64,000 bases of DNA from Eledone cirrhosa (lineage: Eukaryota), in contig OZ024748.1 in NCBI GenBank assembly GCA_964016885.1, positions 34,720,001 to 34,784,000 of the forward strand, written 5' to 3'. Within the stretch, counting starts at the first letter, position 1. Every line of letters starts with the position of its first letter. Below the pieces are notes generated by a model that made no database searches, was not told the origin of the DNA, and saw nothing but the letters and a program-made list of their open reading frames with translations. Both the position numbers and the translations under genes were made by a program. Shown one piece after another: positions 24,008 through 45,158 of the stretch.

Positions 24008-24504
24008 GTATGTATGTATAAGTGTATATATATACAGAGGCGGTGGAACTGGAGGAGTGACATGCCACCACCCAATAATTATATTTTTCTCCCCAAAATA
24101 CCAAAACACATCTATTTGTATATGCGCTATAATTTATGTAAATGTTGTGTAGAGATAGATATAGAGAGGGGGAGAGTTCGGTGTTAATTCATATAGAGAG
24201 TAAGGTTGGGAGAGTGTGTTGTATATTAGATATAGAGGGAGGGGGATTGATATATATTTCTATTTATTTGCCACCAGGGCATCAAAGATTGGGACAAATA
24301 CAAAGGAGGGAGTTTACATACATTTAAAAAGACGTGTAAAAAACATATAACAAATTAAATTTAACAATCGATGTCCTCAATAGGGAGGGGCGTTGACATG
24401 GGTCGCACCCCCCCCCCCCTCCCCCGAAAAAATGTGCAACCCTCCTCTTCAGGAGCACAAAGAGCGGGTGCTTCCTTCCTCTTCTCATTCTTCTCCTCTC
24501 TCAC

Positions 24505-25715
24505 CTACAGGCTGATATAGAGAGAAGTCCCATTCACTCGGGCCATTCTCGCTACTTTCACCCATCTTTCATAAAACTTGCTGGGGTAGAGCACCTCTCT
24601 CTCCATTCTGATCCTTCTAAAGTGGTACTTGAAAAAAAAGACCAGTTGTTGGCCGGAGAGAAAGGTGTCTGACCTCAGCCCTTTCAACCTTGTCCACCAT
24701 ACAACTTCTTTCGCCATGGCTATCACACAGAGGAAAACCGCCTCTCCTTCGTTTTTGAAAGGGGGGGGGGGGAGGTTTGATCTTGACAATGTTCTCGGTG
24801 GTCAACCGGATTGGGCCCACCCGCGACAGTAGTCATTCTACATAGCCCCACAGGTCAGCAACGCCCGGACAGTGTACGAATGCGTGTGCGACGGTTTCCT
24901 CGTCACGCACGCATCTTGGACAGATCTTCTTCGAGGGGTCCCTACCCGGGCGCCCGTGTCTGTAGAGCTTGTCCCGAACGGGTAGAGCTCCTCGGTAACA
25001 TTGCCAAGCCAGGGACTTTTGGAAGTTGTCCATCGGTCCCGGGCCAAACGTTCTACCGAACAGACTGGCCACCTCGCCTTCCTCCATGCCCAGAGCCTCT
25101 CCGAGAGCGTCGTCGCACTTACTGCGCACCAACCCTCTATAGAATGTTGAGGTTGAGTCTCCACTGATTGCCGGATCCGCTTGCCAGAGGGCCGTGAGCG
25201 CCTGGGCAAATTCAATGTGCCAGTCGCCCACTTTTCTCGGTCTTTGCTTGACCCATGATTGCAGCTCGGTGAGTGAGACGAGTCTCGGAAAGGCTCGCCT
25301 CACAAACAGGGCCCACACCGGCTGACCGGTGAGGAATACCTGGAGGTGCCGTAGCCTTAATGTGTGTCCCAGATGGGGCATACGCTGCCACCAGCCTGAA
25401 AGCTCCACCTTCACCACTGCCGACGTCTAAAACCACCAGTCGACCCTCCGAGTCCAGGTGTACCTTCTGTGTGGCAAGACCCAGGTATTTTCGCAGCAGA
25501 ACGACAACCCCACCCCCACCCCTCGGCTGACAGAGAGATGCGTAGATCTCAAAGTCGTCGAAGATGGGGGCCAGTTGGCGCTCGCTGCTGATCCTGGACT
25601 CGCAAATAACCATTACATCCACTCTGTGCGACCTGAGGTCATTTAAGAGTTTGCCCTGTTTCCAGGACATCCCCAAGCCGCGTGCATTCACACATCCAGC
25701 TCTTATATTGGCCAT
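24505..25715 (-). pseudogene. Copy A ORF2 remnant: APE N-terminus plus C-terminal zinc-binding region, RT domain deleted
   Basis: MANIRAGCVNARGL...ICES...YAPSGT is joined at ~25365 to HTLRLRHL...CPRC...ETVAHAFVHC; additional frameshift near 24790-24835. Confidence 0.9.
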
Positions 25716-25757
25716 GTTGGTGCTGAAGAGTTAAAAAGGAAGAGGAAAGGAAGTTAC

Positions 25758-27480
25758 TTACCTCTTCGTCTCCTGGGGACCAGGCTGCACAATTTCCATG
25801 GAGCTGTTGGAAGGGTTGTTTGGTGGGGTGGTGGTTTGTGGTCGGGTGAGGACATCAGTGTGTGGTGGGATTAGGGTGTTTGGTGGGGTGTGGGATTCTG
25901 GTGTGGGGGTGGGGAAACATCTCAATAGGACGCTGTTATGTGGTTTGGTGCAGTTGGTCCCCACATGCATTGGATGGTTCTTTTTCAAAGTTACATAGGT
26001 TTCCGTTGGGACCCTAATCATCATTAGGTGCGGTTTGTTCGCTGCGTAGGTGAAAGTGATCCCTTCGGTTTCCACCGAAGGGTTATTTTCTATCGCTTTC
26101 ATCAACGTTTTATTGTTCTTGTTAATGTATGTATAGAGTTTTTGTTGTGTTGTGTTTGTTTTTGTTTGTTGTTCTTGTGCGTGTTTGCGTTTTGTAGTAT
26201 GTGTTATGTTTTGGGGAGGGGTGGTTTTTTTTATTTGTGATGTTTGTTCTGTTTGTGCTGGTGGTTGTGTGTTTGTGGCATTTTTGTTAATGTGGTGCCT
26301 TTTTTTTTCCTTTTCACCTGTTGAAAGGGTTCTCCCTCGTCGTCACTGGGTGACGTTGATACGGAGTCCTCTTCCGTGTTGTTGGGGAGGGGTATATTTG
26401 GGGGTTTTGTTGTGGCTGCTTTTGTATTTGTTTTAGGTGGGGAGGGGTTGGGTGGAACAGTGTTTTGTGTTGTTATTTTTCCGTGTTGTTGTGGTTGTTG
26501 TTGTTGTTGTTGTGGTGGTGGTGGTGGTGGTGGTTGTGTTGTTGTGTTCGGGGTTGGCAGAAGAGCCTTTTTTTTTACTCGTTAATTGAGGACAGGCATA
26601 CCTCAGGTGACCCCTGCTTAAGCAGTGGTAACATGACGGCCGCCTTCCCTCCACTGAAATGTTTATATAAGTTAGCCCGTCCAGAGGCACGCGTTGTGGG
26701 ATATTCGCTATTCGTTCTGGGCTCATTTGCACCAGAACTTCTACGCTGGTCCCACCAAATACACCTCCGGAGGACTTTCCTATTGAAATTATCTTGTCTT
26801 CGTCAAAGTTAATGATTCCACATAGTATCCACCAAATATTTACATTTGGTGTGATACTCATTCTTTTTATTCTTTGTGTCCTTTTTCCCCTGTATATGGG
26901 GAAAAAGGTGAAGCGGGGGGACACAATGGGTGATACCGAGTACTTTTGAGCTGTTGACTGGTTGTTCATTAGCACCGAAATGCTACCAAACAGTTTACCT
27001 TTTTGTATGAAGGTTAAGTCCTTCATTGCATCTTTTAGAACCAGCTCAATTTCATTTTGTGATAATTGAGCTGGTTTTCTTGTTTCGTTCGATATTGTCC
27101 TGAAAACTGTGGTTTTCAGGACAGCTTCTCTACGTAATTCCTGTGGAGAATTGATGCCAAAAGCACCTTTTTCGCCAAAAGTCACGAATTGTTTTGCGTC
27201 TTGTAATAGTTGTTTAGCATTTGTTATGTCTATTGGCGTGTATAGTTCGTTTTTTTTTTACAGTCTGTGCGAATGTTGTTTTGGTGTTGTTGTCTTTTTT
27301 GTTGCTGTCACTGTTGGTAATATTGTTCATGTTTTCCTTGGTGCTGCTATTGTTGCAGTTGTTGGTTGTGGTGTTATTGTCATTGTTCTTGTTGTTGGTG
27401 CTGGTATTATTTACCGGGTTTGGTTTCGTGGTTTCGATATTTTTAACGTTTTTCGATAATGCGAGGGGGGAAGGCTGCAA
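25758..27480 (-). pseudogene. Copy A ORF1 (gag-like nucleic-acid-binding protein), frameshifted
   Basis: ORF pieces 27214-27693, 26433-27185 (CYHCLSRGHLRYAC zinc knuckle) and 25758-26105 are homologous to copy C ORF1. The start position is approximate. Confidence 0.85.
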
Positions 27481-27847
27481 GCTTTGTACTCCTACCTTCC
27501 CTCCACCACTTTTCTTAGTGGGCGTGGCACTCACGACAGTGTGCGAGGCGGAAATGACATACATTGCGCCCAAGTCTACAGTTTTGAGATGAAAATTGAA
27601 AATTTCGCCCCAGAAAGGGGCGAAAATTAGTTGACTCATCGTCTGACGACCCAGGCAAGGGGTTAAACTAAAAAATGTTATTAAATTGAGCAATAAACTT
27701 ACAGTTTTTTTGACAATAATCCGTAAAAATCCGGAGCGAAGTAAATCACGTCTATATCAAGTGGTAATTGATATAGAGAGAGGGATAGAAAAAGAGTGTT
27801 GTATGGTTGATTTTGGCTTCTTGGGGCTCAATTTTCGTTCTTTGTAC

Positions 27848-27992
27848 TGAAATATTCGTTGTAATGAATTCCGTTATAACGCGATTCTTTTATTGTTGTA
27901 TTAATAAGCTTTTACCCGGAGCTTGAAAACAATTTCGTTATACTGAGAAATTCGTTATAATGATATTCATTATAACGGTATTTTACATATAT
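27848..27992. mobile_element. Possible Tc1/mariner- or pogo-type MITE remnant
   Basis: Repeated TTCGTTATA(A) subterminal-type motifs ending in TTATAACGGTATTTTAC; only one end was recognised. Confidence 0.4.
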
Positions 27993-28219
27993 GTATACAG
28001 ATGTACAGTAGTATGTATATATATACATACATGCACACATATATATATGCATGTATCGGTTTACCGAACATTTATTATAATGCTCGGTTTGTTTGTTTGT
28101 AAACAAACAAACAGCCCGAATTACGCCGTACAGTGTTTAGGCAACCACGTCACCTTTTTGTTCAACACTGACATATATATATATGTATACACACACATTC
28201 ACACACTCGCGCATGCATT

Positions 28220-28229
<10 letters not shown>

Positions 28230-28278
<49 letters not shown>
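28230..28278. repeat. (GT)n microsatellite
   Basis: Directly visible. Confidence 0.95.
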
Positions 28279-28279
<1 letters not shown>

Positions 28280-28280
28280 A

Positions 28281-28358
28281 GGTCACCAGATGGTGCTACT
28301 GGTAACATGTATCCCAGTACAACCTGTCTCATGGTCGGGTCGTTGGCGACTAAACTGG
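28281..28358 (+). ncRNA. Putative (degenerate) HDV-like self-cleaving ribozyme
   Basis: P1 GGUCA/UGGUC (28281-85/28332-36), P2 CCAGU/ACUGG (28314-18/28354-58), CC in L3 with GG (28337-38) for P1.1, P4 UCG-UUGG-CGA, J4/2 C-UAA. P3 is imperfect. Confidence 0.55.
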
Positions 28359-28477
28359 CAACCCCACCAAGGTTTCTTGGTGAGGAGGGTGACGTTGGAC
28401 ATCCTGCAGGACTAAAAACAAAACCTATCAAAGGGCAAAGGAGCTCTGAAGAGTCAATGGCCATCCAAAATCACCGG

Positions 28478-28533
28478 GAGATGACGCCTTAGAGATGACC
28501 CCTTAGAGATGACCCCTTAGAGATGACCCCTTA
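28478..28533. repeat. 4 x 14-bp direct repeat GAGATGACCCCTTA
   Basis: Directly visible; the homologous site is single-copy in RTE-like copy 1. Confidence 0.9.
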
Positions 28534-28917
28534 GCCTTTGTCAAGGCAGAATTCTAGGAGAAGGAAAACTCTGATATAACACCTGCAACCCTGATGGTAT
28601 CCAATGATGTTGACTTGTTCTTCTTTTTGGTAAATATCATCTTGGTTAAGAGAGTGGGACTGGCTTTGTGCAGTGCCTTTGCTCACTATAAAAGCTTCAC
28701 GGCACAGGCATTGCTTTATATCTGGAGATCTCTTTGCACTTGTCGTCACATGGTGCCATGGGCCCAGCACTGTGTGTCTATAATTGTCACAAGTGTTTGT
28801 ACCAGAGTTTTCAAGTCGCTGGCTGGACTAAAAAGTCACACTCGTTCAGCACATCGGTAAGGGTTCTCCTACATGAATATAAAGTAGTGGCCGTACTCGA
28901 AAACGAGTTGGCAGCCA

Positions 28918-28919
<2 letters not shown>

Positions 28920-28985
<66 letters not shown>
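28920..28985. repeat. (AT)n microsatellite
   Basis: Directly visible. Confidence 0.95.
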
Positions 28986-28988
<3 letters not shown>

Positions 28989-29253
28989 TACACATATGAT
29001 GGAGCAATATGTATTTGAATACGTATAGCAACAGTGAGTGGGCGTTTGATTAGAAGAGTTGGTTGGATAGTGTGGTGTGGTTTGGGTGGGGAAGTTTGTT
29101 CTCACTAATTATATTGTTATATTATACACATACATTCACATACGGTCAGACAGACTGACAGACAGACAGAATTGGAACAACTGTGACCTCACATTGAGGT
29201 CAGCAATTAATCACTGAACTTAGATCTCTGTCGTTTTATCGCACAAACCTAAC

Positions 29254-29460
<207 letters not shown>

Positions 29461-29599
29461 CGTATGTGTGTTTTACGCAAAATACTCTTTTATGATGCAA
29501 ATTATCCTGGTTGTTTGCGGCATTGAATGATTGCTGGGTAGTTAGATAAATATGGAGATAGCGATATAGAGACAGAAGGATGGGGTAGAAGATTAATGG

Positions 29600-29636
29600 A
29601 CAGAGAGATAGATAGACAAGTAGGTATATAGATAGG

Positions 29637-29667
<31 letters not shown>

Positions 29668-29735: not shown

Positions 29736-29841
29736 ATGTTTCTTTATTAGCCACAGGGGCACAAAAGAAGGAGACAAATACAAAGGGGGAAGTTTACGTA
29801 CTATAAAAACGTGTAAAATGTTGTCACAAATGGAATTTAAA
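29736..29841 (-). mobile_element. ~105-bp 3'-terminal fragment of the copy B-type Tx1 element
   Basis: Near-identical to 29862-29968; flanked on both sides by ATAG repeats. Confidence 0.9.
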
Positions 29842-30101
29842 TAGATAGATAGATAGATAGATATGTTTCTTTATTAGCCACAGGGGCACAAAAGAAGGGG
29901 ACAAATACAAAGGGGGAAGTTTACATACAATAAAAACGTGTAAAATGTTATCACAAATGGAATTTAAAAAGTTAGTCGATTTTCCCCAATAGAGGGAGAC
30001 AGTTTATATGGGTAACACATACCCCCGAAAAAAAATGTGCAACCCTCATCTCCAGGAGTACGAAGAGTTTGTACTCCTTTCCTCTCCTCCTTTTCCTCAA
30101 C

Positions 30102-33100
30102 CTACAGGCTGATATAGAGAGAAGGCCCATTCACTCGGGCCATTCTCGCCACTTTCACCCACCTTTCATAAAACTTGCTGGGGTACAGCACCTCTCTCTC
30201 CATCCTGATTCTTCTTCCAAAGTGGTATTTGAAAAAAAGAATCAGTTGTTGGCTGGAGAGAAAGGTGTCTGACCTCAGCCCTTTCAACCTTGTCCACCAT
30301 ACAACCTCTTTCGCCATAGCTATCACACAAAGGAAAACCGCCTCTCCTTCGTTTTTGAAGGAGGGTGGCGGTTTGATCATGACAATGGACTCGGTGGTCA
30401 ACTGGATTGGTCCCACCCGCGACAATAGTCGTTCTACATAGCCCCACAGGTCAGTGACGCCCGGGCAGTGTATGAATGCGTGCGCGACGGTTTCTTCGTC
30501 TCGCACGCACCTCGGACAGATCTTTTTTGCAGGGTCCCTGCCCGGGCGCCCATGTCTGTAGAGCTTGTCTCGAACTGGTAGAGCTCCTCGGTAGCACTGC
30601 CAGGCTAGGGACTTTTGGAAGTTGTCCATCGGTCCCGGGCGGAATGTCCTACCGAACAGACTGGCCAGTTCATCTTCCTCTACGCCGAGAGTTTCACCGA
30701 GCGCGTCGTCGCACTTGCTGCGGACCAACCCTCTATAGAATGACGAAGTGGAGTCTCCACTGATCGCCGGGTCCGCCTGCCAGAGGGCTGTGAGCGCCTG
30801 AGCACATTCGATGTGCCAGTCGCCCATTTTCCTCGGTCTTTGCTTGACCCAGGACTGCAGCTCCGTCAGCGAGACGAGTCGTGGGAAGGCTCGCCTCACG
30901 AACGGGGCCTACACCGGTTGTCCGGTGAGGAATACGGAGAGATGCCGCAGCCTGAGCGCGTGTTTGCGCATCGTCAACCACGGCATCCCCAGCCCTCCGT
31001 TAGAAGGGTGTTGGCAGCAGATGGATCTTCTCACCAAAGGAGCCCGCCTCTTCCAAAGGAATCGGAAGAGCGCGCGCTCCATTTTGGCGAGCGTTTTGGC
31101 TGGACAAGGCACGACGGTCAAGCGGTAGTAGATGGCGGACGCTATAAAAGTGTTCGCCACCTCCGCTCGACCTTTCAAGGATAGTTTGCACTCGGCCCAC
31201 TTCTGGGTGAGTGCAAACACCTTGGCCGTCACTTCGTTCCAGTTCTTCTCCACCTGGAGGTCCGGACCAAACCAGACCCCGACCAGCTTTACCGGTCCTT
31301 CCGTCCAGCGTCCGACGACGCCATCGGAAGGCATCGGTCTGCCTCTCCACGATCCGAGTTGCAAACCGATGGACTTGTCCCGGTTCAGCTTCGCTCCTGT
31401 GACACTTTCGTATTCCTTCAGTAAGGTGCCGACTTCCTCGATTTGCGAGGCGCTCGACACCATTACTGTCACGTCGTCGGCGGCGTAGGCCGACGACGCT
31501 TTCCGCAGTCCCGGTTCCAGAGGGATGCCCTGCAATAGCTCCAGCTTCCGCAGTAGTGGCTTGAGAGTCAGTACGCACAGAAGGGAGGAGAGAGGGCATC
31601 CCTGTCGAATGGATCGCGTGATATGGAACGGCTCCGAGAGCTAGCCGTTCACCTTGACCCTTGAGCAGATGTTGCTGTTGTGCATTGCAGCAATCCAGCC
31701 CCTGAACACGGGTCCGAACCTGCCGCCTCGAGCACCGCATCCAGGTAACGATGGTCAACCCTATCGAAAGCCTTAGACTGATCCAAGTTGATCAGGGCCC
31801 CACCGAAGCCGGGTTTACACCCTACCCTCTCTATGATGTATCGCATGAGGTGGAGGTTGTCGTGTATGGACCTGGTCGGGATTGCACATGTCTGCGCTTC
31901 TCCCACCAGGTTCTCGATGACAAGCGCCAGCCTCTTTGCCAACACCTTGGCCAAAATCTGTAACTCTGTGTTTAGCAGAGTTATGGGCCGGAAGTTTCCT
32001 ATGTCATCCCCCTTATTCTCGTCCTTCCTGATTAGTGTGACCACGCCCCTGGTTACAGAACTGGGAATTCTCCCGTTCAGTTGCCAGTTGCAGTAGACCG
32101 CTTCCAGGAGACCGGAGAATAAGTCCGGCATTGCTACGTAAAATTCGTAGGGTAGACCGTCGAGACCTGGAGATTTGCGTTTGCCGCATTGGCTCAGCGC
32201 GTCCCCTATCTCAGTGGCTGAAATCGGCTTTTCGCAGAACTTTGCCTCGCTGTCCGAGAGTCGCGGTAGGCCGTCGAGGTATGGACCGAAATCCATAGCC
32301 TCTCCCGGCGCGCCGCTCCCCCCGAACAGCCGAGCAAAGTGCCGCTGAAAAGCCGCACACATCTGCTTCGGCTCACGTATCACGCGTCCGTTTTGGTCCT
32401 TCAAAGACCGAGTCGTGGACTTGTTGCCACTTTTTGCCTCCGTCACTCGGGCCCAGCTAACAGCTTTGGCTCCCTCGTTTCCCAGAGTACGTATTTTGCT
32501 TCTGACAACGCAGCCCTCGTGCTTTGCGTCGAAGAACTGGTCCAAGGCCGTTCTCGTTGCTAGCACGCTGGCTACGTTGCCACTTCTAATTGCCTCTTCT
32601 ACTTTATCTACCAGTTCCTTCTCGGTTCTATTTCTATCTAACGCTAATTCTTTACTAAAAACTATCGAGTCTAATCTAACTACCCTCTTGAGAGAGTACC
32701 ACCATCTGTTGTTGACAATGGCCCCTGTCAAGTGCTGTTTAACTAAAGTGCTAATCCGTCTACTGTAGGCTTTGCTTGTCGGTAACGACAAGTTCAGCTT
32801 CCAGTAGCCGGGTCCTTGTCTATGGGTTCTATCAAGGTTGGCCATGCAGGTCACTAGTTTGTGATCTGAATAGGCAACCATGAACATTTGTGGACAGCTT
32901 AACATGTCCCTATCCTTATTTCTAACTAGAACCCTGTCTAGGTACGATCTAGATGTTCCGCTACGATTACTCCACGTCCACAGTGGCGCAGTCGGAAAAT
33001 CTAGTCGATATCTATTGGCCAGGTCAAATCGGTCGATTAACTGTTTGAGGCTGTTACACCCCCCTTTATCGGGACATGCTCCCACATAGTCCCAACGTGC

Positions 33101-33540
33101 ATCTAGGATTCCATTCTAGCCCCCCACTAAAAGCAAGGAGCGGGACGTTCCCAAAAAAGTCTCTAGACGTTTGAAGAAGTCTGGCCGCGGTGTCCCGGAT
33201 GGGGCATATGCGGCCACCAGCCTGAAGGCTCCACCTTCACTACCGTCAACGTCTAGGACCACCAGTCGACTCTCCGGGTCCAGATGTACCGTCTGTGTTA
33301 CGAGGCCCAGGTGTTTCCGCAGCAAAACGGCAACTCCGCCCCACCCCCCGGTTGACAGAGAGATGCGTAGATCTCAAAGTTATCGAAGATGGGGGCCAGC
33401 TGTCGCTCGCCGTGGATCCTGGACTCGCAAATGGCTACCACATCCATACTGTGCGACCTGAGGTCGTTTAAGAGTTTGCCCTGTTTCCAGGGCATCCCCA
33501 GGCCGCGTACGTTCACACATCCAACTCTTATATTGGCCAT
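30102..33540 (-). pseudogene. Copy B ORF2 (APE endonuclease, reverse transcriptase, zinc-binding C-terminus) with frameshifts and a nonsense codon
   Basis: SYLDR, SDH, NFRPITLLNTE, LDQSKAFDRV and CPRC motifs are spread over several ORF pieces; TGG>TAG at 30909-30911. Confidence 0.93.
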
Positions 33541-33577
33541 GTTGGTGCTGAAAAGTTAAAAGAGGAAAAGAGATCAC

Positions 33578-35400
33578 TCACCCTTCGCCTCCTGGGGACC
33601 AGGCCGCACGATTTCCATGGGGGTGTTGGAGGGGTTGTCTGGATGCGTGGTGGTTTCCGGCGGGGTGGGGATGCAGAAGTTTGGTGGGGTGGGGTCTGGT
33701 GGGATGGGGGTGTCTGGGTGGGGAGGCATTTGAGAAGGACGCGGTTGAGTGGTTTCACGCAGGAATTCCCCACATCCTTCTCAAATCTTTCTTTTAGGGA
33801 CCTATAAGTTTGTATAGGGACCCTAATCAGTTTTAGGTTCAGTTTTTTGTTATTTTTAATAGAGTGGGCGAAAGTTTTCCCTTCGGTGAAAACCGAAGGG
33901 TCGTTCGTGATGGTCTCCATTAGTGTTTTGTTTTCAGTGTTTATGTAAGTGTAAGTGTCATTTTCTTGTGTTGTGTTTGTTTTTGTCTGTAGTTCTTGTG
34001 TGTGCTTTCGTTTTGTTGTAGGTATTTTGTCTTCAGGAGGTGGGGGTTTTGTTTGTGATGTTTTGCTGTTTGTGTTGGTGGTTGTATGTTTGTGGTAGTG
34101 TTTGCTGGTTTTTTGCTTTTGTGATGTCTTTTCTTTCTTTTCGAGCGATGGGGTTCTCCCTCGTCTTCACTGGGTGATGGCGAGATAGCCTCATCTGTTG
34201 TATCGTCTGTGTGATTGGGGAGGGGTATGTCTTGGGGAGCTGTTGTGTCTGTATGTGATTTTGCAGTGGTTTTAGGTGGAGTGGGGTTGGGTGGGACTGT
34301 GTTTGTTGTGGTTATTTTTGTGTGTTGGTGTTGTTGTTGTGGTGGTGGTGTTGGTGGTTGTGTTGTTTTGATGGGTGTCGGCAGAAGAGCCTTTTTTGGT
34401 TCATTAGTTTAGGACAGGAAGCCCTCAGGTGACCCCTGCTAAACAATGGTAACATGAAGGCCGCCTACCCTCAACCGAAAAGTTTATGTACGTGAGTCCG
34501 TCCAGGAGTACACGCTGTGGGATCATAGCTATTCGCTCTGGGCTCATTTGCACCAGAACTTCAATGCTAGTCCCATTGAATACATCTCTGGGGGACTTGC
34601 CTACTGACAGTATTGTCTTCATCAAAATTGATGAAGCCGCACAGTATCCACCATATGTTCACCTTTGGTGTGACACTCGTGATACTGATCTTTTGTGTCC
34701 TTTTTCCCATGTATGTAGGGAAAAAGGTGTACAGGTTGGATACAATTGGCGACACAGAGTAATTTTGGGCCGTCAATTGATCCTTCATGAGTACTGAAAT
34801 ACTCCCAAAAAGTTTGCTTCTTTGAATGAATGCAATATCATTCATTGAATTTTTGAAAACCAGTTAAAATTCTTTCTGTGACAATTGGACTGGTTTTCGG
34901 GTAGAATTGGAAACTGTCCTAAAAACTATCGTTTTGAGAGCAATTTCCTTGCGAATTTCTACCGGAGAATTGATGCTGAAAGCACCATTTTTTTCGAAAG
35001 TGACATATCTCTTAGCGTCCTTTAAAAGTTGTTCAACATTTGTTATGTCGAGATATATCAATTCTTCTTTCTTTTGAACTTTCTCTGCAAAGGAGATTTT
35101 TGGTTTCTTTGTGGAATCCGTATTGGTGGTGTTGTCATTATTGTTGTTATTCTTGTTGTTATTCTTGTTGTCACCGATGTTGGTATCATCCGTATTTTCC
35201 TTGGTGTTGTTGTTGTCTTCGATGCTGGTGTTATTGGCGTTGTCTTTATTTTTTTTCTTTGTTGTTGTTATCATTGTTGCTTTTATCATCATTATTGGTT
35301 TTGCTGTTATTTTTGTTGTCATTGAACTGTTTGGTGTCATTTGTGTTGTTTGGATATGAATTCGTTTTTTTATTTTTCATTTTGTCTTTCCATCTCTATA
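33578..35400 (-). pseudogene. Copy B ORF1 (gag-like), multiply frameshifted
   Basis: Pieces 34864-35340, 34567-34845, 34425-34625 (SCYHCL) and 33528-33920 are homologous to ORF1 of copies A and C. The start position is approximate. Confidence 0.85.
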
Positions 35401-35697
35401 GTATCTAGTGAAGAAGACGTTGTTGACTGCGAGCTTTGTAGTCTTATCGCCTCTCCACCACCATTATCGTTGGACGCAAACGTAATCAAAATTTTACAAT
35501 ATTTTTTCCAAGATTCGATGGAGAAACATTTTTTTAATGGATATTCCGCCCCTGTAGGGGCGAAAATGAGTTGACCCACCACCTGAAGGTCCAGACGGGT
35601 GGTCAAGTTACACAATGATATAAAATTTAACTAAAAACTCACGTTTTTTTCTTACATAAATTAACGGAAACTTCCCGCGAAGTTACACACGTCTGAT

Positions 35698-35698
35698 T

Positions 35699-35757
<59 letters not shown>
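35698..35757. repeat. (GATA)n spacer between Tx1 copies B and C
   Basis: About 15 perfect units. Confidence 0.97.
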
Positions 35758-35971
35758 TTCTTTATTTACCATAAAGGCATAAAAAGAAGGGACAAATACA
35801 AAGGGGGAGTTTACATACAATCGAGTAAAAAGGGTATAAAATGAAAATAATCGAAAATAACCTCAAAAGGGAGGGGACGTGATGGGGGTTGCACACACCC
35901 CCGAAAAAGTGTGCAATCCTTTGCCCGGGGAGCACATGGAGAAGGTGCTCCCCTATCCTTTACTTCTTTAC

Positions 35972-38900
35972 TTACAGGATGGTATACAGAGAAGGCCCAT
36001 TTACACGAGCCATTCTCGCCACTATCACCCACCTTTCATAAAACTGCCTGTGGCCAAGCACCTCTCTCTCCATTCTTATCCTTCTTCCGAAGTGATATCG
36101 GAAGAAGTAGACCAGGCTATGGCCAGAGAGGAAGTTGCCTGACCTCAGACCTTTCAATCGTGTCCACCAAACAACCTCTTTCAACATGGCTATTACGCAC
36201 AGAAAAACCGCCTTTGCTTCCTTTGTGAAGAGGGGAGGCGGTTTGATTGTCATCACGGACTCGGCGGTCAATTGAATCGGCGCCACCCGCGACAGCAGTC
36301 GTTCGGCGTAGCCCCACAGATCAGCCACGCCCGGACATTGCACCAATGCGTGCGCAACGGTTTCTTCGTGACGCACGCATCTAGGGCAAATCTTTTCTGA
36401 GGGATCCCTGCCCGGGCGCCCGTGTCTGTAGAGCCTCTCTCGAACGGGTAGAGCCCCTCGGTAGCACTGCCAGGCCAGTGACTTCTGGAAGTTGTCCATT
36501 GGTCCTGGGCCGAAAGTCCTACCGAACAGGCTGGCCAGTTCGTCTTCTTCCATGTCCAGCGACTCTCCAAGGGTGTCATCGCCCCTGCTAGCCACCAGCC
36601 CTCTATAGAATGATGAGGTGGATTCTCCACCGATGGCCTTGCCCGCTTGCCAGAGAGCCCTGAGCGCCTGAGCACACTCAGTGTGCCAGTCTTCCAGTTT
36701 TCCGGATCTTTGCTTGACCCAGGACTGTAGCTCGGTGAGCGAGACGAGTCTCGGAAAGGCTCGTTTCACGAACGGAGCCCACACCGGTTGACCAGTGAGG
36801 AATACCTGTAGGTGCCGTATCCTTAATGCGTGCCTACGCATCATCAACCACGGCATCCCCAGCCCTCCTTTCGAAAGTTGTTGGCAGCAGATGGATCTTC
36901 TCACCATAGGAGGCGCTTCTTCCAAAGAAATTGGAAGAGCATGCGTTCCATGGTGGTGAGTGTTTCCTTAGGGCAAGGCACGACAGTCAGGCGGTAGTAA
37001 GTGACGGACGCTATGTAAATGTTCGCCACCTCCGCCCGGCCTTTTAGGGACAGCTTACACTTGGCCCATTTCTGGGTTAGTGCAAACACCTTGTTCGTAA
37101 CCTCGTTCCAGTTCTTTTCCACCTGGAGGTCTGGTCCAAACCAGACCCCAAGCAACTTTACCGGGCCCTCCGTCCAGTGTCCGACGACACCGTCGGGAGG
37201 CATCGGTCTGCCTCTCCACGTTCCGAGTTGCAGCCCGATGGATTTTTCCCGGTTCAGTTTCGCTCCTGACAACCTTTCGTAATCCTCCAGTAAGGTACCG
37301 ATCGCCTCGATCTCCGAGTCGGTCGATACCATTACTGTTACGTCATTGGCGTAGGCCGACGCCGCTTTGCTCAATCCTGGTTCTAGGGGTATACCATGCA
37401 ACAACTCCAACTTCCTCAGTAAAGGCTCGAGAGTCAATACGTATAGAAGGGAGGAGAGAGGGCACCCCTGTCGAATGGATCGTGTGATTTCGAACGGCTT
37501 CGAAAGGTAGCCGTTCACTTTGATCCTAGAACAGATGTGGTTGCTATGTAAGGCAGTGATCCAGCCTCTGAAAACAGGACCGAACCCAGCCGCCGCTAGC
37601 ACCGCATCCAGGTAACCATGGTCGACCCTATCGAAGGCCTTAGACTGATCCAAGTTGATCAGGGCCCCACCGAAGCCGGGTTTGTTGCCAACCCTCTCTA
37701 TGATGTATCGCATGAGGTGGAGGTTATCGTGAATGGACCTGGATGGGATAGCACATGTCTGCGCATCTCCCACCAGGCCACCCACGACAAGCGCCAACCT
37801 CTTTGCTAACACCTTGGCCAAAATCTTTAACTCTGTGTTTAACAGGGTTATGGGCCGAAAATTATTTATACTATCTCCATTGTGCTCGTCCTTCCTCACC
37901 AGCGTGACTACGCCCTTGGCTACAGAACAAGGAATTCTCCCGTTCTGCTGCGAATTGCAGTAGACCGCTTCGAGGAGTTCGGAGAAGAAGACCGGCATTG
38001 CTAAATAAAGTTCGTAAGGTATACCATCGAGACCTGGAGATTTGCGTCTGCTGCATTGGCTCAGCGCATCTCCGATCTCATCAGCCGAGATTAGTCCCTC
38101 GCAGGACTCTGCCTCTTCGCTCGAGAGACGCGGCAGGCCGTCGAGGTATGGACCGAAATCCACGTCCCCGCCCGGACCCTCTCCTCCCCCGAACAATCGG
38201 GCAAAGTGCCTTTGAAAGGCCTCGCACATCTGCTTAGGCTCCCGGATCACCCGTCCATCTTCGTCTTGCAACGACCGGATGGTGGATCGATTTCCACTCT
38301 TAGCTTCTGTCACGCGGGCCCAGCCAACGGCTTTGGCCCCCTCATTACCTAGAGCACGTATTTTACTTCGAATGACGCAGCCTTCATGCTTTGCATCGAA
38401 AAACTGGTTCAAGGCCGTCCTCGATGCCAGCACTCTGGCCACATCTTCGCTCTTGATTGCCTCTTCTAATTTACCTGTTAATTCTTTCTCGTTTCTATTC
38501 CTATCGACAGCTAACATCTTGCTATAACTTATTGATTCTGTTTTAATCTCTCTTTTGAGAGATGCCCACCATCGGTTGTTGACGATTGCACCCGTCAACC
38601 TCTCCTTAACTAATCTGCTAATCGGGTTTCTGTAAGTCTCTTTTGCCGGTAAAGACAAATTAAGTTTCCAGTAACCGGGACCCTGTTTATGTGTTTTCTC
38701 GAGATTGACTACGCAGGTCACTAATTTGTGATCCGTGTAGCCAACCGTGCGCATTTCTGGACAGCATAATATGTCCCTATCCTTACTTCTAACTAAGAAT
38801 CTATCTAAGTACGATCTAGATTGACCACTGTGGTTTCTCCAAGTCCAGGTAGGCACAGTTGGAAAATCTAGTCGATATCTATCGACCAAGTTAAAACGGT

Positions 38901-39408
38901 CGAGTAACCCCTTGAGGCTGTTACACCCCCCTCTATTAGGACATGCTCCTGCATAGTCCCAACGTGCATCTAGGATGTCATTCCAATCCCCCGCTAGAAT
39001 CAGGGAACGCGACGTTCCCAGAAAAGTCTCTAAACGCTGGAAGAAGTCGGGCCGTTCAGCTCCGAAAGGGGAGTAGACGGCGACCAGTCTTAAGGCCGCA
39101 CCTTCACTACTGCCAACGTCTAGCACCAACAAACGACCCTCCGGGTCCGAGTGCACAACCTGTACGGCAAGACCCAGGTGTTTTTGCAGCAGTACGACAA
39201 CCCCACCCCCACCTCCAGGTTGACAGAGAGATGCATGCACCTCAAAGTCATCGAAGGTAGGGGCCAGCTGCCGCACGACGCTGATCCGAGTCTCACAGAT
39301 AACCATTACATTTATACCACATGACCTGAGGTCATTTAGAAGCTTTGCTTGCTTCCAAGTTGAGCCCAGGCCACGTGCATTCAAACATCCTACTCTTAAC
39401 ACATCCAT
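35972..39408 (-). pseudogene. Copy C ORF2 (APE-RT-zinc finger); one frameshift near 36913 and catalytic YADD>YAND
   Basis: 835-aa ORF with GCLNARGL, ICET, GDWN, SYLDR, TDH, LDQSKAFD, RQGCPLS, YAND; the C-terminus continues in 35972-36925. Confidence 0.95.
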
Positions 39409-41172
39409 GTGGGCGGCAGAGCCAAAGGAGAGTGTAGAGACCTACCTTTCCGCTTCCCGGGGTTCGGGTCGCACGACTTCCATGGGTCGGGGGTGTTGGG
39501 TGAAGGGGTGTCTTGTGGTGGTGTGGGGTCGTCAGTGTGTGGTGGGGTTGGGGTGTTTGGAGTTGTGTTGGGGAGGGGAAGGGGAGGGGGAAAGCTTTTT
39601 AGTAGGACGCGGTTTATGGGTTTGACAGAGGGTGGTCCTACGTCCTCCTTAAAATCCTTTTTTAGTTTTTGGTAGAGGTTCATTGGGATCTTTATTAATT
39701 TTAAATGTGGGTAGTTTTCTGAAGAAACAAAGTTTACACCTTCGGTTTGTACCGAAGGATTATTGTTTATGAGTTCATTTAATTTATTATTGTTTCTGTT
39801 GATGTAAGTATAGTGTAATGTCTTTTTTTCGGATGGTGTGAGTGTTTCGAAGAGGGGAGGGGCAGGTTTGGTTTTGTTTGTTGCTGGAGGGGTGTTTTCT
39901 GTTTTGTTGGATTGTGTTGACATTTGGGTGGGGGTTGTTTGGCCTTGTGTGTTTTGCACATGTTTTCTTTTTTTCCTTTTAATCTGTCTGAAGGACTCCG
40001 TTTCTTCCTCCGAATTCGTTGGGTTATCTTCAGTGTTGGAGGGAAGAGGTATGTTTGCTGGTAATGTTTCCGTGTTGGTTTTCTTTGTGGGGGAGATGGA
40101 TGTCACTATGTTAGACTGTGTTGTGTGTTGTGTCTGCGGTGGTTGTGTTGTTTTATTGAGTGAGGGGTTGGGTGGGCCTGTATTTTGTTTTGGGGTAATG
40201 TGTTGTGACTGTTTGTGTTGTGGTGGTGGTGTAGTTTTACTGAGGGACGGGTTGGGTGGGACTGAGTTTTGTTGTTTGTTTATCTGTTGTGGTGGTGGTG
40301 GTGGAGCTGGTGTTGGTAGCAGGGTTTTCTTTTTGTTGAGTTGGGGACAAGCGGCCTTCAGGTGCCCTCTGCCTGCACAGATATGACAGGACAGCCTTCT
40401 CCCATCCACGCTAATGTTTATATACCCGTGGCCCTCTAATAGGATTCTGTCGGGTATTTGGGCGATGCGTTCAGGCTTCATTTGCACTACCAGCTCTATA
40501 CCTGTTCCACTGAACGCATTGCCTGTGGTTTTCCCAATGGAAATCACGTTGTCATTCACTGGATCGATGAAGCCAGCTATGAGCCAGCAGTAGTCCACAT
40601 CTGGCATCATTGCATCCAGCCATATGCGTTGAGTTCTTTTACCCATATAAGATGGATAAAAGGTAAAATTTTTTGAACGAATCGGTGACAAAGCACATTT
40701 TTTTGCCGCCGATTCGTTCTTCATAATAATTGCTAGGCTTCCATACAGTCTGTCTTTTCTTATGAAAGTGGTTTCATTAAGTACTTCTGTGAGTACTGTT
40801 TTGATATCTGCCTGAGTTGGCTGTTCAGGTTTTTTTGAAGTGTTGTTGATGGTGCGGAACACGACCGTTCGACTTTCAATGTCTTTGGTGAGTTCTTGAG
40901 GCATTTTTACCGATAAAATACCATTCTCTCCTTCACTTATGTATTGTTTGGCGTCTGTGATTCTTCGTGCCACATCTGAAATATTTTCAGGTATATATGT
41001 CAAAGATTTCTTTGTTGTTTGTGCAAATGAAATCTTGTTGACTGTCGTCTGCTTTGCTTTCTGTTATGGTGTTATTTTCAAATGTTATTTTTGTGTTTGT
41101 TGTGTCTTTGTTTGTGGTATTAGTATTGTCATGCAATTTTTCAAATTTTCTTTTTTCGTTGTTGGAATCCAT
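39396..41172 (-). CDS. Copy C ORF1 gag-like protein with one CCHC zinc knuckle and Pro/Thr-rich linker (N-terminal frameshift near 41000)
   Basis: 535-aa frame containing CHICAGRGHLKAAC, plus upstream piece 40987-41172. The true stop may be 39442-39444 (see findings). Confidence 0.85.
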
Positions 41173-41578
41173 GTCCAGATTTGTGTTTTCGTCATTTTTC
41201 TCCGCAGATTCGTCTGTTTTTATTTTATTTTGTCCTTCCTTCTCTATGACGTTAGTTGGGAAGGAAGGGGGGGACTAAAGCGTGCGAGCTTACAACTCTT
41301 ACCGCTGTCCCCCCACCACTATTTTCGTTCGCTTCGTTTAACATTTCTGTCAGACGATTGAAATTTTTTTGCCACAAATTTTTTTAAAACAGGTTTTTCA
41401 CCTCTAGGAGGGGTAAAGATGAGCTGACCCACCGCCTGACAGTTCAGACGGGGGGTCAAGCTACACAATAGTGTCAAAATTAAATTTGAACTCACAAAAT
41501 TTCCGCCATAAATTTGAACAAAACTTCTGCGCGAAGTGAATTACATCCACACTGTAGAACAGACGACAGCTAGATTAT

Positions 41579-41855
<277 letters not shown>

Positions 41856-41856
41856 T

Positions 41857-41903
<47 letters not shown>
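41856..41903. repeat. (GATA)n spacer
   Basis: Directly visible. Confidence 0.95.
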
Positions 41904-44900
41904 TATTTCTTTTATTTGCCACTAGGGCATCAAAAGTGGGACAAGTACAAAGGGGGGAGTTTACACAAAAAGGCGTCCTCAATAAGGAGGAGGCAATAAC
42001 AAAATATAAAAATAAAATAAGATATAACAAAAAATAAAATTTTTAACAAAATCCTCAATAGAGAGGAGGCGCCTTGGGGGGTCGCACACACCCCCGAAAA
42101 AAGTGTGCAACCCTTCTCCTCAGGAGCACAGAGAAGGGGTGCTCCCTTGGTCTTTCATCTTCCTCACCTATAGTCTGATGTAGAGTGAAGGCCCATTCAC
42201 ACGGGCCATTCTCGCCACTTTCACCCATCTTTCATAGAAACGGCTGGGGTGCAGCACCTCTCTCTCCATCCTGATCCTTCTTCCGAAATGATATCGGAAG
42301 AAACGGACCAGTTGTTGGCCAGAGAGAAAGGTGCCCGACCTCAGTCCTTTCAGACGCGTCCACCATACAACCTCTTTCGCCATGGCTATTACGCACAGAA
42401 ACACCGCCTCTGCTTCATCTTTGAAGGGGGGAGGCGGCTTGATCATTACAATAGACTCGGTGGTCAACCGGATCGGTCCCACCCTTGACAGCAGTTGTTC
42501 GACATAGCCCCACAGATCGGCTACGCCCGAGCAGTGTACTAATGCGTGTGCAACGGTTTCCTCGTCGCACACGCATCTGGGACAGATCTTTTTGGCGGGG
42601 TCCCTACCCGGGCGCCCGTGTCTGTAGAGCCTTTCTCGAACGGGTAAAGCCCCTCGGTAGCACTGCCAGGCCAGGGACTTCTGGAAGTTGTCCATAGGTC
42701 CCGGGCTGAATGTCCTACCGAACAGGCTGGCCAGTTCGTCCTCCTCCATGTCTAGGGCTTCTCCGAGGGCGTCGTCGCACCTGCTGCGCACCAGCCCTCT
42801 ATAGAATGTTGCGGTGGAGTCTCCACTGATAACCGGATCCGCCTGCCAGAGGGCGGTGAGCGCCTGGGCACACTCAGTGTGCCAGGCGCCCAGTTTTCTC
42901 GGTCTTTGCTTGACCCAGGATTGCAGCTCGGTGAGTGAGACGAGTCTGGGAAAGGTTCGTCTCACAAACGAGGCCCACACCGGTTGTCCGGTGAGGAATA
43001 CGTAGAGGTGCCGTAGCCTTAATGCGTGTTTACGCATCATTAGCCACGGCATCCCCAGCCCTCCTTTCGAAGGGTGTTGACAGCAGATGGATCTCCTCAC
43101 CATAGGAGCCCGCCTCTTCCAAAGGAATTGGAAGAGCGCGCGCTCCATCTTGGTGAGGGTTTCCCTTGGGCAGGGCACTACGGTCAGGCGGTAGTAGATG
43201 ACGGACGCTATGTAGGTGTTCGCCACCTCCGCCCGACCTTTCAGGGATAGTTTGCAACTGGCCCACTTCTGGGTCAGTGCAAACACCCTGTTCGTAACCT
43301 CCGCCCAGTTTTTCTCCACCTGGAGGTCCGGTCCGAACCAGACCCCGAGCAACTTCACCGGGCCCTCCGTCCAGCGTCCGACGACGCTATCGGAGGGCAT
43401 CGGTCTGCCCCTCCACGTGCCGAGTTGCAAACCGATCGACTTGTCCCGGTTCAGCTTAGCCCCTGTGAACTTTTCGTACTCCTCCAGTAAGGTGCCGACC
43501 GCCTCGATTTCGGAGGCCGTCGACACCATTACTGTCACGTCATCGGCGTAGGCCGACACCGCTTTCCGCAATCCCGGTTCCAAAGGGATGCCCTGCAACA
43601 ACTCCAACTTCCGCAGTAGTGGCTCGAGAGTCAACACATACAGAAGGGAGGAGAGAGGGCACCCTTGTCGGATGGACCGCGCGATTTTGAACGGCTCCGA
43701 GAGGTAGCCGTTCACCTTGACCCTAGAGCAGATGCGGCTGCTGTGCATAGCAGTGATCCAGCCCCTGAAAACGGGTCCGAAGCCTGCCGCCGCTAGCACC
43801 GCATCCAGGTAACCATGGTCGACCCTATCGAACGCCTTAGATTGATCCAAGTTGATCAGAGCCCCACCAAAGCCGGGTTCGTTCCCAACCCTCTCTATGA
43901 TGTATCGCATGAGGTGGAGGTTGTCATGGATGGACCTGGACGGGATAGCGCATGTCTGCGCATCTCCCACCAGGTTGCCCACGACAAGCGCCAACCTCTT
44001 TGCTAGCACCTTGGCCAAAATCTGTAACTCTGTATTTAGCAGTGTTATGGGCCTGAAGTTACTTATTTCGTCCCCCTTGTTCTCGTCCTTCCTCACTAGC
44101 GTGACTACGCCCTTGGTCACAGTACAGGGAATTCTCCCGTTCTGTTGCCAGTTGCAGTAGACCGCCTCGAGGAGATCGGGGAACAAGTCCGGCATAGCTA
44201 GATATAATTCGTAAGGAAGACCATCGAGACCCGGGGATTTGCGTTTGCCGCATTGGCTCAGCACGTCCTCTATCTCAGCGGCCGAAATCGGCTCCTCGCA
44301 GGACTTCGCCTCCCTGTCCGAGAGGCGCGGCAGGCCGTCGAGGTATGGACCGAAGTCCACGTTCCCAACCGGCTCCCCGCCCCTCCCGAACAGTCGGGCA
44401 AAGTGCCTTTGAAAGGCCTCACACATCTGCTTAGGCTCAAGAATCGCCCGTCCATCCAGGTCTCGCAAAGACCGGATGGTGGATTTAGTTCCACTGTTGG
44501 CCTCTGTCACGCGGGCCCAGCTAACAGCTTTGGTCCCCTCGTTCCCTAGAGCACGTATTTTACTTCGGACAACGCAGCCTTCGTGCTTCGCGTCGAAAAA
44601 CTGGCTCAAAGCCGTTCTCGACGCTAGCACTCTGGCCACGTCGCCGCTTCTAATTGCCTCTTCTACTCTATCTATTAGCTCCCTTTCCTTCCTATTCCTA
44701 TCCGCAGCTAGAACCTTACTAAATTCTATCGAGACTACTCTAATCTCTCTCTTTAGAGATACCCACCACCTGCTGTTGACGATCGCTCCAGTCAACCGTT
44801 CCTTAACTAACGTACTAATCCGATTCCTGTAGGCTCTACTTGCCGGCAAGGACAAGTTGAGCTTCCAGTAACCGGGGCCCTGTCTATGAGTTCTGTCAAG

Positions 44901-45158
44901 GTTGACCATGCAGGTCACTAATTTGTGGTCTGAATAGCCAACAATGCGCATTTTTGGACAACTTAAAAAGTCCTTAGCCTTAATTCTAACTAAGAACCTA
45001 TCTAGGTACGACCTAGATGATCCGCTACGATTTGCCCAAGTCCAGGTTGGCGCAGTCGGAAAATCTAGTCGATATCTATCGGCCAGGTCAAATCGACCGA
45101 TTAACCCTTTGAGGCTATTACACCCCTCTCTATCGGGGCAGGCCCCTACGTAGTCCCA
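41904..45158 (-). mobile_element. Tx1-clade non-LTR retrotransposon copy D, 5'-truncated within the endonuclease
   Basis: 3' UTR with AATAAA next to (TCTA)n; homology to copies B and C stops at TAGTCCCA (45158), where the satellite begins. Confidence 0.95.
42168..45158 (-). CDS. Copy D ORF2 (partial APE, RT with intact YADD, C-terminal zinc motif), uninterrupted frame
   Basis: The 927-aa ORF extends in frame upstream (WDYVGACPD...SYLDR) to the satellite junction. Confidence 0.93.
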   Translation of the reverse strand, partial: WDYVGACPDREGCNSLKGLIGRFDLADRYRLDFPTAPTWTWANRSGSSRSYLDRFLVRIKAKDFLSCPKMRIVGYSDHKLVTCMVNLDRTHRQGPGYWKLNLSLPASRAYRNRISTLVKERLTGAIVNSRWWVSLKREIRVVSIEFSKVLAADRNRKERELIDRVEEAIRSGDVARVLASRTALSQFFDAKHEGCVVRSKIRALGNEGTKAVSWARVTEANSGTKSTIRSLRDLDGRAILEPKQMCEAFQRHFARLFGRGGEPVGNVDFGPYLDGLPRLSDREAKSCEEPISAAEIEDVLSQCGKRKSPGLDGLPYELYLAMPDLFPDLLEAVYCNWQQNGRIPCTVTKGVVTLVRKDENKGDEISNFRPITLLNTELQILAKVLAKRLALVVGNLVGDAQTCAIPSRSIHDNLHLMRYIIERVGNEPGFGGALINLDQSKAFDRVDHGYLDAVLAAAGFGPVFRGWITAMHSSRICSRVKVNGYLSEPFKIARSIRQGCPLSSLLYVLTLEPLLRKLELLQGIPLEPGLRKAVSAYADDVTVMVSTASEIEAVGTLLEEYEKFTGAKLNRDKSIGLQLGTWRGRPMPSDSVVGRWTEGPVKLLGVWFGPDLQVEKNWAEVTNRVFALTQKWASCKLSLKGRAEVANTYIASVIYYRLTVVPCPRETLTKMERALFQFLWKRRAPMVRRSICCQHPSKGGLGMPWLMMRKHALRLRHLYVFLTGQPVWASFVRRTFPRLVSLTELQSWVKQRPRKLGAWHTECAQALTALWQADPVISGDSTATFYRGLVRSRCDDALGEALDMEEDELASLFGRTFSPGPMDNFQKSLAWQCYRGALPVRERLYRHGRPGRDPAKKICPRCVCDEETVAHALVHCSGVADLWGYVEQLLSRVGPIRLTTESIVMIKPPPPFKDEAEAVFLCVIAMAKEVVWWTRLKGLRSGTFLSGQQLVRFFRYHFGRRIRMEREVLHPSRFYERWVKVARMARVNGPSLYIRL

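What the first reader, a model, noticed from the sequence alone, without database searches (positions are those of the whole stretch)
24256..45158. Same-orientation cluster of divergent Tx1 retrotransposons apparently targeting (GATA)n
Seen: six insertions, all on the minus strand. From 29736 to 45158 five of them are separated essentially only by (ATAG)n (29842-29861, 35698-35757, 41579-41748, 41856-41903). Their 3' ends read AATAAA plus a few bases and then (TCTA)n, with no poly(A); 5' ends, including truncated ones, also abut or lie close to the repeat. Copy A lies apart in degenerate GATA/GA sequence. The long copies differ strongly in ORF1 and UTRs, so they are not a tandem duplication. 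None of these 3' ends lies in the abundant local (GT)n tracts or long (AT)n runs. Established: Tx1-clade families can be microsatellite specific (Kibi for (TC)n, Koshi for (TTC)n). Inference: a multi-subfamily lineage with strand-specific (GATA)n targeting in which each insertion preserves or regenerates the target, giving self-growing arrays. I do not know of a described GATA-specific family but cannot search.
Basis: partly seen in the sequence, partly recalled or inferred. Interest (0 to 1): 0.78.

Follow-up and report, generated by a model that had tools for sequence, protein, structure and literature searches.

The report
GATA-targeting LINE lineage with target switch
A very abundant, recently mobile family of jumping genes (LINE retrotransposons) inserts in one orientation into GATA repeats across this animal genome and stacks into chains, while a close sister subfamily lands in a different repeat, a natural pair that would let one test which enzyme changes likely redirect targeting.

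Summary
The cluster is real and reflects genome-wide targeting. The six minus-strand pieces belong to four subfamilies of one L1/Tx1-group LINE lineage with about 13,000 or more 3' ends. For the youngest subfamily (copy F; 758 exact 3' ends; an intact copy exists), 32 of 39 copies elsewhere have a TATC run within 30 nt of the 5' junction: 19 of 25 truncated copies, 0 of 39 on the other strand, background 0.3%. Nine copies have 12-25 bp target duplications with non-repeat letters, so the 3' (TCTA)n is target DNA, not a tail. The recognised site is short (TATCTAT), so long GATA arrays are preferred, not required. Copy F's 5' end abuts a 91-bp satellite. Copy A is not in degenerate GATA: its subfamily targets CTCTC|TATATC in a 32/39-bp minisatellite, although a sister about 92% identical still targets TATC. 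The two differ at seven majority endonuclease-region sites plus others; two are arginine gains near DNA-facing loops (inferred). Full-length copies carry a piece of their target at the 5' end. No GATA-targeting family turned up in my searches; Repbase could not be searched. Tx1 membership is likely but unresolved.

The parts
24255..27763 (-). Copy A: both ends present, about 2.2 kb of ORF2 deleted at 25364-25368; subfamily A (minisatellite-targeting)
   Evidence: 95.5-97.1% to natural full-length A copies, reference 1-2402 and 4624-5722
27764..27780 (-). 5' leader of subfamily A (CTCTCTATATCAATTAC-type copy of the target unit)
   Evidence: near-invariant before 30 of 30 A 5' ends, the window's included (by eye); differs from the 3' flank unit in 8 of 12 full-length copies
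24035..24254 (-). Target of copy A: 32/39-bp CTCTCTATATC minisatellite units, then the right end of an older dispersed host repeat
   Evidence: the right-end block is shared by 16 of 30 A 3' flanks
29736..29848 (-). 3'-UTR fragment, subfamily B (short insertion or local duplication)
   Evidence: 94.5% to B copies; 94% to the adjacent end of copy D
29841..29860 (+). (ATAG)5 spacer/target
29862..35697 (-). Copy D: full-length subfamily B element; ORF1 and ORF2 broken by stops and frameshifts
   Evidence: 97.2% over 5,850 bp to another B copy; RT and zf-RVT in pieces
35699..35754 (+). (GATA)14 spacer/target
35758..41577 (-). Copy C: full-length subfamily C element; ORF1 with CCHC knuckle (39396-41063); APE-RT ORF (36901-39441) frameshifted before the C-terminal part (35972-36967)
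   Evidence: 98.5% to another C copy
41579..41746 (+). (ATAG)42 spacer/target
41749..41855 (-). Copy E: 107-bp 3' fragment of subfamily B
   Evidence: 98.2% to B copies
41857..41900 (+). (ATAG)11 spacer/target
41904..45159 (-). Copy F: 5'-truncated member of the youngest subfamily; open frame with RT and zf-RVT; 5' end abuts the 91-bp satellite
   Evidence: 99.85% to intact copy L032

Best explanation
These are independent insertions of an APE-RT LINE lineage that land in one orientation at TATCTAT sites, mostly in GATA repeats, and duplicate 12-25 bp of the site; its endonuclease likely nicks the GATA-reading strand there and reverse transcription likely starts from that nick. Shown: orientation, site consensus, duplications, no poly(A), same-strand chains. 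Each insertion leaves a TATC site on both sides through the duplication. Full-length copies also carry a short copy of the target at their own 5' end (shown for subfamily A and for two F copies), which likely pairs with the upstream target during 5' joining. Later copies reuse these sites, which builds head-to-tail arrays such as 29736-45159. Subfamily A, closest to a TATC-targeting sister, uses CTCTC|TATATC in a minisatellite that often lies inside an older dispersed repeat (shown). The cause of the shift is inferred to be endonuclease change (candidates G65R and L/T187R), possibly helped by the changed terminal RNA letters and leader.
For: F subfamily, 40 copies fetched, 39 usable: TATC run at 32 of 39 5' junctions, 0 of 39 in the GATA orientation, background 0.30%. 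(AT)n is about 40 times more abundant than (TATC)n in the sampled DNA (5,614 vs 144 bp). The first seven target bases are TAT 40/40, C 37/40, TAT 39/40. Nine duplications contain non-repeat letters (L037, L038, L054, L055, L058, L059, L064, L065, L068). In three minisatellite insertions where the 5' copy of the site is visible (L055, L056, L062) it is the TATC unit variant, which makes up 18 of 140 other units counted in four such arrays. Subfamily C: 27 of 30 full-length 5' ends. Whole lineage: 9,462 3' ends are followed by TATCTATC against 13,342 counted by a wider pattern. Arrays: 19 of 39 F loci have another lineage piece within 500 bp, 25 of 26 on the same strand, against 35 of 400 sampled 500-bp bins. 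Subfamily A: 0 of 30 5' flanks and 1 of 30 3' flanks have a TATC run, 27 of 30 3' flanks begin TATATC; 17 of 20 further copies have the minisatellite motif upstream; 18-bp duplications in L290 and L179 (by eye). Intact ORF1 (593 aa) and ORF2 (1,144 aa from the start region) in L032; APE, RT and zf-RVT.
Against: 7 of 39 F 5' junctions miss the strict test: two lie in TA-rich runs, two in minisatellites, two are joins to other lineage members and one (L069) is unexplained. 3 of 6 truncated A copies in the unbiased set have 5' flanks outside the minisatellite (L276, L279, L287), and 3 truncated A copies (L164, L165, L180) also lack it there. Many duplications fall in pure repeat and cannot be measured. 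The B 5'-end sample (30 of 30) is biased because the query included the repeat. The F sample is the 40 best hits, all on two contigs and at least 497 bp long. L055 and L056 lie in the same array. No nicking or RNA data exist here, so endonuclease read-out and RNA-primer pairing cannot be separated. In L1-EN single point mutants lost activity but kept specificity (PMC1950540, passages), which cautions against a one-residue cause of the switch. The hairpin loop itself shows no A-unique change; R187 lies just before it.
Confidence: 0.8

Rival explanations
1. Targeting is set mainly after nicking. A loosely specific endonuclease nicks TA-rich DNA, and only nicks whose 3' end pairs with UAUCUAU at the RNA 3' end (read through from the donor locus) prime reverse transcription; the 5' leader adds a second pairing step.
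For: No poly(A) in 40 of 40 F copies and a fixed junction register. Terminal letters track the target (GT then TATCT in 24 of 25; the other ends then TATAT in 73 of 75; first 100 rows, counted by eye). The elements carry target-like 5' leaders. PMC1950540 (passages) names RNA-target pairing as a possible post-nicking filter.
Against: The fourth base after the junction follows the local target (A in 3 of 40 TA-rich sites), and no extra TATC units are seen at the 3' junction of the informative copies, so pairing would be only a few bases. Truncated copies lack the leader and are still targeted.
Confidence: 0.3
2. (TCTA)n is an element-encoded 3' tail and the element inserts at random; arrays arise from template jumping or tandem duplication.
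For: Every window 3' end is followed by TCTA or a related run; one 127-bp piece may be a tandem duplication; two F copies are chimeric joins (L050, L052).
Against: Truncated 5' ends sit in TATC (19 of 25 vs 0.30%); duplications include non-repeat letters; the perfect run after the 3' end is 7 nt or shorter in 11 of 40; neighbours in the array belong to different subfamilies of different ages.
Confidence: 0.04
3. Insertion is unspecific and copies survive preferentially in GATA arrays or satellite-rich regions.
For: The window array lies between two large satellites.
Against: The F copies are 98.9-100% identical to the reference, leaving little time for selection, and are dispersed along whole contigs. 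Selection would not give strand bias or a base-exact register.
Confidence: 0.03

Closest known systems
Kibi ((TC)n) and Koshi ((TTC)n) of teleosts; crocodilian Tx1 families in (TTCC)n/(TTTC)n
   Same: APE-RT LINEs of the Tx1 clade that insert into a microsatellite (PMC4494074 passages; PMC3812793 passages).
   Different: The target here is (TATC)n/(GATA)n, absent from the lists I read. The lineage forms its own long, fully supported branch with unnamed relatives of 39-69% identity and is not sister to the fish Tx1-type proteins in my tree. Which named families those fish proteins are could not be established.
Tx1L (into the DNA transposon Tx1D) and Tx1-Mar (into Mariner-N4_AMi)
   Same: Subfamily A targets a site that often lies inside an older dispersed repeat (shared left arm in 18 other loci of 30 upstream flanks, shared right end in 16 of 30 downstream flanks). 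Tandem insertions that sandwich a target duplication are reported for SINEU-3.
   Different: The site is a repeated minisatellite unit, not one fixed position. The host repeat's class was not determined. A sister about 92% identical keeps the microsatellite target.
Waldo/Mino (R1 clade; ACAY, AC) and Dong (TAA)
   Same: Microsatellite-specific non-LTR elements.
   Different: Other clades and targets; the best solved-structure matches here are L1 ORF2p and L1-EN, far above R2.
SART1/TRAS1 and R2 (recalled, no call)
   Same: Recalled: target-like sequence at the RNA ends assists priming or 5' joining, and same-orientation arrays form in a repeated target.
   Different: Different clades and targets; the pairing role of the leader here is inferred only. 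My one paper search for this mechanism returned nothing.

Membership tests
L1 group non-LTR retrotransposon (L1/Tx1) | ORF2 with N-terminal APE endonuclease, RT and C-terminal cysteine-rich zinc motif | tested here: met
   Exo_endo_phos 2e-9, RVT_1 1e-24, zf-RVT 1.8e-6 in copy C; profile matches L1 ORF2p at 1e-183 and L1-EN at 5e-40, R2 at 1e-58
L1 group non-LTR retrotransposon (L1/Tx1) | Separate ORF1 upstream of ORF2; 5' truncation; target-site duplications | tested here: met
   ORF1 593 aa then ORF2 in L032; 25 of 39 usable F copies truncated; duplications of 12-25 bp
Tx1 clade | RT phylogeny within Tx1, apart from L1 | tested here: inconclusive
   FastTree of 100 RT regions: own clade with support 100, backbone 81-86, no named L1 or Tx1L reference in the set. 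ORF2 scores 280 bits against a fish Tx1-type protein and 167 against human L1 ORF2p. Nine fetched proteins were dropped for short coverage.
Tx1 clade | ORF1 with RNA-binding domains and a CCHC knuckle (label recalled) | tested here: inconclusive
   CX2CX4HX4C is in the sequence; Pfam zf-CCHC only E 0.05, no ZCCHC3-type RBD hit; Atlas look-alikes at 0.90-0.92 include CCHC and ZCCHC3-RBD clusters, a lead only
Tx1 clade | Target preference: over 20% of flanks of one type (criterion in PMC4494074) | tested here: met
   F 32 of 39, C 27 of 30, A 17 of 20
Kibi/Koshi | (TC)n or (TTC)n target | tested here: not met
   Targets are TATCTAT and CTCTC|TATATC
Sequence-specific APE LINE | Endonuclease cleaves the target specifically in vitro | not testable with these tools
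   No biochemical data
Any Repbase/Dfam family already described | Identity to a catalogued family with a stated target | not testable with these tools
   Repbase and Dfam are not held; the supplement of PMC4494074 could not be read

The most novel reading that the evidence does not exclude
An undescribed, still mobile LINE lineage has colonised GATA repeats with well over ten thousand copies, regenerates its landing site at both ends, and has been caught in a recent change of target: two sister subfamilies about 92% identical aim at (TATC)n and at a transposon-borne CTCTCTATATC minisatellite, and a few endonuclease substitutions (two arginine gains on DNA-facing loops) cause the change.
Probability: 0.3. 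Interest if true: 0.78.

Novelty: new variant of a known kind. Interest (0 to 1): 0.6.

Why it matters
How APE-type LINEs recognise microsatellites is described as not well understood (PMC3812793, passage). This lineage supplies an intact young element, hundreds of near-identical insertions that define the site to the base, and a close sister pair with different targets. That makes the question of endonuclease read-out versus RNA pairing directly testable with few candidate residues. It also shows that LINEs can interrupt and extend GATA arrays at genome scale, which bears on how these repeats evolve and on their use as markers in this animal. The microsatellite target alone is a modest addition to a known list.

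Tried and rejected
Sequencing runs: no RNA holder listed. Four runs laid as contigs gave no information on RNA ends; low-depth pieces in two other coded organisms were not used as evidence. A maximum-likelihood tree did not finish and FastTree was used instead. No fold of the endonuclease was obtained, so residue positions rest on sequence alignment. The fish proteins BAC82621.1 and BAD04856.1 could not be tied to family names. Paper searches for a GATA/TATC-targeting LINE found none; on read-through priming found nothing. The Octopus vulgaris repeat paper (PMC13282606: first third of the text plus passages) lists 13 recently active L1-Tx1 families and never uses the word 'target'; its supplement was not read. 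PMC85248 (Tx1L endonuclease) is not held. Earlier notes of this scan had nothing on this genome or sequence. Rejected: tail-only model, tandem duplication of the long copies, passive survival. L053 was dropped from junction counts because my script picked the neighbouring copy, cut by the locus edge. In one search, 6 of 20 A, 2 of 10 C and 2 of 10 B loci gave no 3' end in the fetched stretch. The host taxon comes from no call; an octopod is my guess from recalled repeat features and genome size.

Full report
Setting. The window is G000:C8:34720001-34784000 of a 3.0-Gb animal genome. The finding lies between a 40-bp satellite (1-20367) and a roughly 90-bp satellite (45158-61134). The host taxon is not given by any search.

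Observation. Six minus-strand pieces of one LINE lineage are present: A 24255-27763, a B-type fragment 29736-29848, D 29862-35697, C 35758-41577, E 41749-41855 and F 41904-45159. The five right-hand pieces are separated by (ATAG)n. The long pieces are 76-84% identical to each other but 95.5-99.85% identical to natural copies of their own subfamilies elsewhere, so they arrived separately. The 29736 fragment is 94% identical to the adjacent end of D and may be a local duplication. F's 5' end abuts the satellite, not TCTA.

What the element is. A natural full-length F copy (L032, 5,720 bp) has an intact ORF1 (593 aa, one CX2CX4HX4C) and ORF2 (1,144 aa as searched). Pfam gives APE, RT and zf-RVT, and a profile matches L1 ORF2p at 1e-183. 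The closest database proteins are unnamed, at 69% and 39-44% identity. In a FastTree of 100 RT regions they form one long, fully supported branch with the window copies; the backbone is unresolved and the fish Tx1-type proteins are not its sister. ORF2 scores higher against a fish Tx1-type protein (280 bits) than against human L1 (167 bits). L1 group is therefore shown, Tx1 clade likely.

Abundance. F has 758 exact 33-bp 3' ends; the 40 best hits are 98.9-100% identical to L032 over their length. A degenerate pattern for the shared 3' end counts 13,342 places; it excludes ends with G at one flank position and can count a place twice. 9,462 ends are followed by TATCTATC.

Target or tail. Of the 40 F copies fetched, 39 were usable. 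A TATC run of 8 nt or more lies within 30 nt of the 5' junction in 19 of 25 truncated and 13 of 14 full-length copies, never in the opposite orientation, against 169 of 57,000 background windows. In the same 200 kb, (AT)n covers 5,614 bp and (TATC)n 144 bp. The seven misses are two TA-rich sites with scattered TATCTA, two minisatellites, two chimeric joins to other lineage members, and L069. Nine copies show duplications of 12-25 bp that start at the first base after the element and include non-repeat letters (L037, L038, L054, L055, L058, L059, L064, L065, L068); a few bases of each are shared with the element end. The first seven bases after the element are TAT 40/40, C 37/40, TAT 39/40; the perfect run is 7 nt or shorter in 11 of 40; none has poly(A). 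In three minisatellite insertions the visible 5' copy of the site is the TATC unit variant, which is 18 of 140 other units in four arrays (two of the three share one array). The repeat is therefore target DNA, and the recognised unit is about TATCTAT. Subfamily C agrees (27 of 30, the window's copy included). Subfamily B agrees (30 of 30), but that query included the repeat.

Arrays. 19 of 39 F loci have another lineage piece within 500 bp, 25 of 26 neighbours on the same strand; 35 of 400 sampled bins contain lineage DNA. Two full-length F copies in minisatellites (L048, L062) carry extra TATC units at the 5' end beyond what the local repeat explains.

Copy A and the target switch. None of 30 A 5' ends has a TATC run; all 30 follow a CTCTCTATATC-type motif in a degenerate minisatellite with 32- and 39-bp spacings. 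27 of 30 A 3' ends continue with TATATC and 1 of 30 with a TATC run. The motif CCCCTCTCTATATCWA occurs 3,709 times against 20 for its reversed control, in clusters. In 20 further A copies taken in genome order, 17 have the motif upstream, 14 are full-length, and 3 of the 6 truncated ones have 5' flanks outside the minisatellite. Duplications of 18 bp are seen in L290 and L179. In 8 of 12 full-length copies the 5' side reads TATATCAATTAC although the 3' unit is a different variant, so this leader belongs to the element (also L212, L215, L226). The minisatellite often lies in an old dispersed repeat with a shared left arm and right end. A 33-bp 3'-end pattern (452 places) splits into ends with GT or AT then TATCT (24 of 25) and other ends then TATAT (73 of 75), counted by eye in the first 100 rows. 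The GT group is older (88-94% pairwise) and about 92% identical to A over ORF2; few of its 20 fetched copies gave a clean 5' junction, and several full-length ones begin in TATC runs. Over the first 250 residues of ORF2, A and this sister differ in majority residue at 15 positions, six of them unique to A among five subfamilies: V32, R65, Y77, R124, N128, R187 (14 A and 15 sister copies). By alignment, 65 falls in the loop that reads NGKQKKAG in L1-EN and 187 just before the beta-hairpin. That hairpin affects L1-EN specificity, but single point mutants did not change it (PMC1950540, passages). That the first loop faces DNA is recalled. Since B, C, F and the sister all use TATC, A is the likely derived state (inference; no subfamily tree was built).

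Mechanism. Shown: site consensus, orientation, duplications, leader, arrays, two targets. Inferred: a bottom-strand nick by the APE domain at or within ATAGATA, priming there, second-strand cleavage about 12-25 bp downstream, and leader-assisted 5' joining. The share of specificity due to RNA pairing is open.

Known systems. Microsatellite-specific LINEs are established: Kibi (TC), Koshi (TTC), crocodilian Tx1 (TTCC/TTTC), Waldo, Mino and Dong (PMC4494074 and PMC3812793, passages), Togen (TG) (PMC4640811, passages). Targeting of another transposon is known for Tx1L and Tx1-Mar. PMC8869645, PMC2684134 and PMC4889948 were seen as passages only. Six searches found no GATA/TATC-specific family, but Repbase, Kojima and Fujiwara 2004 and the supplement of PMC4494074 could not be read and may list one.

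Verdict. Real, genome-wide and well supported. It is a new target for a known behaviour, with an apparent recent target switch between close sisters as the more valuable part. Novelty: new variant of a known kind; interest 0.6.

Noticed in passing
window 1-20367 and 45158-61134: Two large satellites (40-bp unit, about 510 copies; 89-91-bp unit with a 182-bp dimer) bracket the LINE cluster; copy F's 5' end abuts the second one.
   Followed up: no
L131-L190 flanks; window 24035-24254: An old dispersed repeat (70-90% identity) with a shared left arm of about 450 bp, an internal 32/39-bp minisatellite and a right end resembling CCAGTTCCACCGCCCCTG followed by TA runs hosts many A copies; class undetermined.
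   Followed up: partly
L271, L284: A variant of subfamily A with a different 5' leader that matches the other minisatellite unit, identical at two separate loci.
   Followed up: no
L271-L290: 14 of 20 A copies taken in genome order are full-length, a high share for a LINE; it would fit leader-assisted 5' joining.
   Followed up: no
L032 upstream flank: The only opposite-strand neighbour of 26: an F segment 99.8% identical lies inverted 49 bp upstream, and the 3' flank contains an inverted GATA run.
   Followed up: no
L050, L052: F copies joined directly to other lineage members without TATC, at a homologous position in L052; possible recombination or template switch.
   Followed up: no
window 23552-23928 and 28357-28714: Two 68%-identical copies of a roughly 380-bp dispersed repeat on either side of copy A.
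   Followed up: no
window 21280-22436 and 23005-23417: A 36-bp minisatellite (32 copies, 96%) and a GTGGT-rich tandem array.
   Followed up: no
window 41749-41855, 29736-29848; G000:C1:12380134-12380325: 3'-UTR-only pieces of about 110-130 bp recur in arrays; extreme truncations, local duplications or a short non-autonomous form.
   Followed up: no
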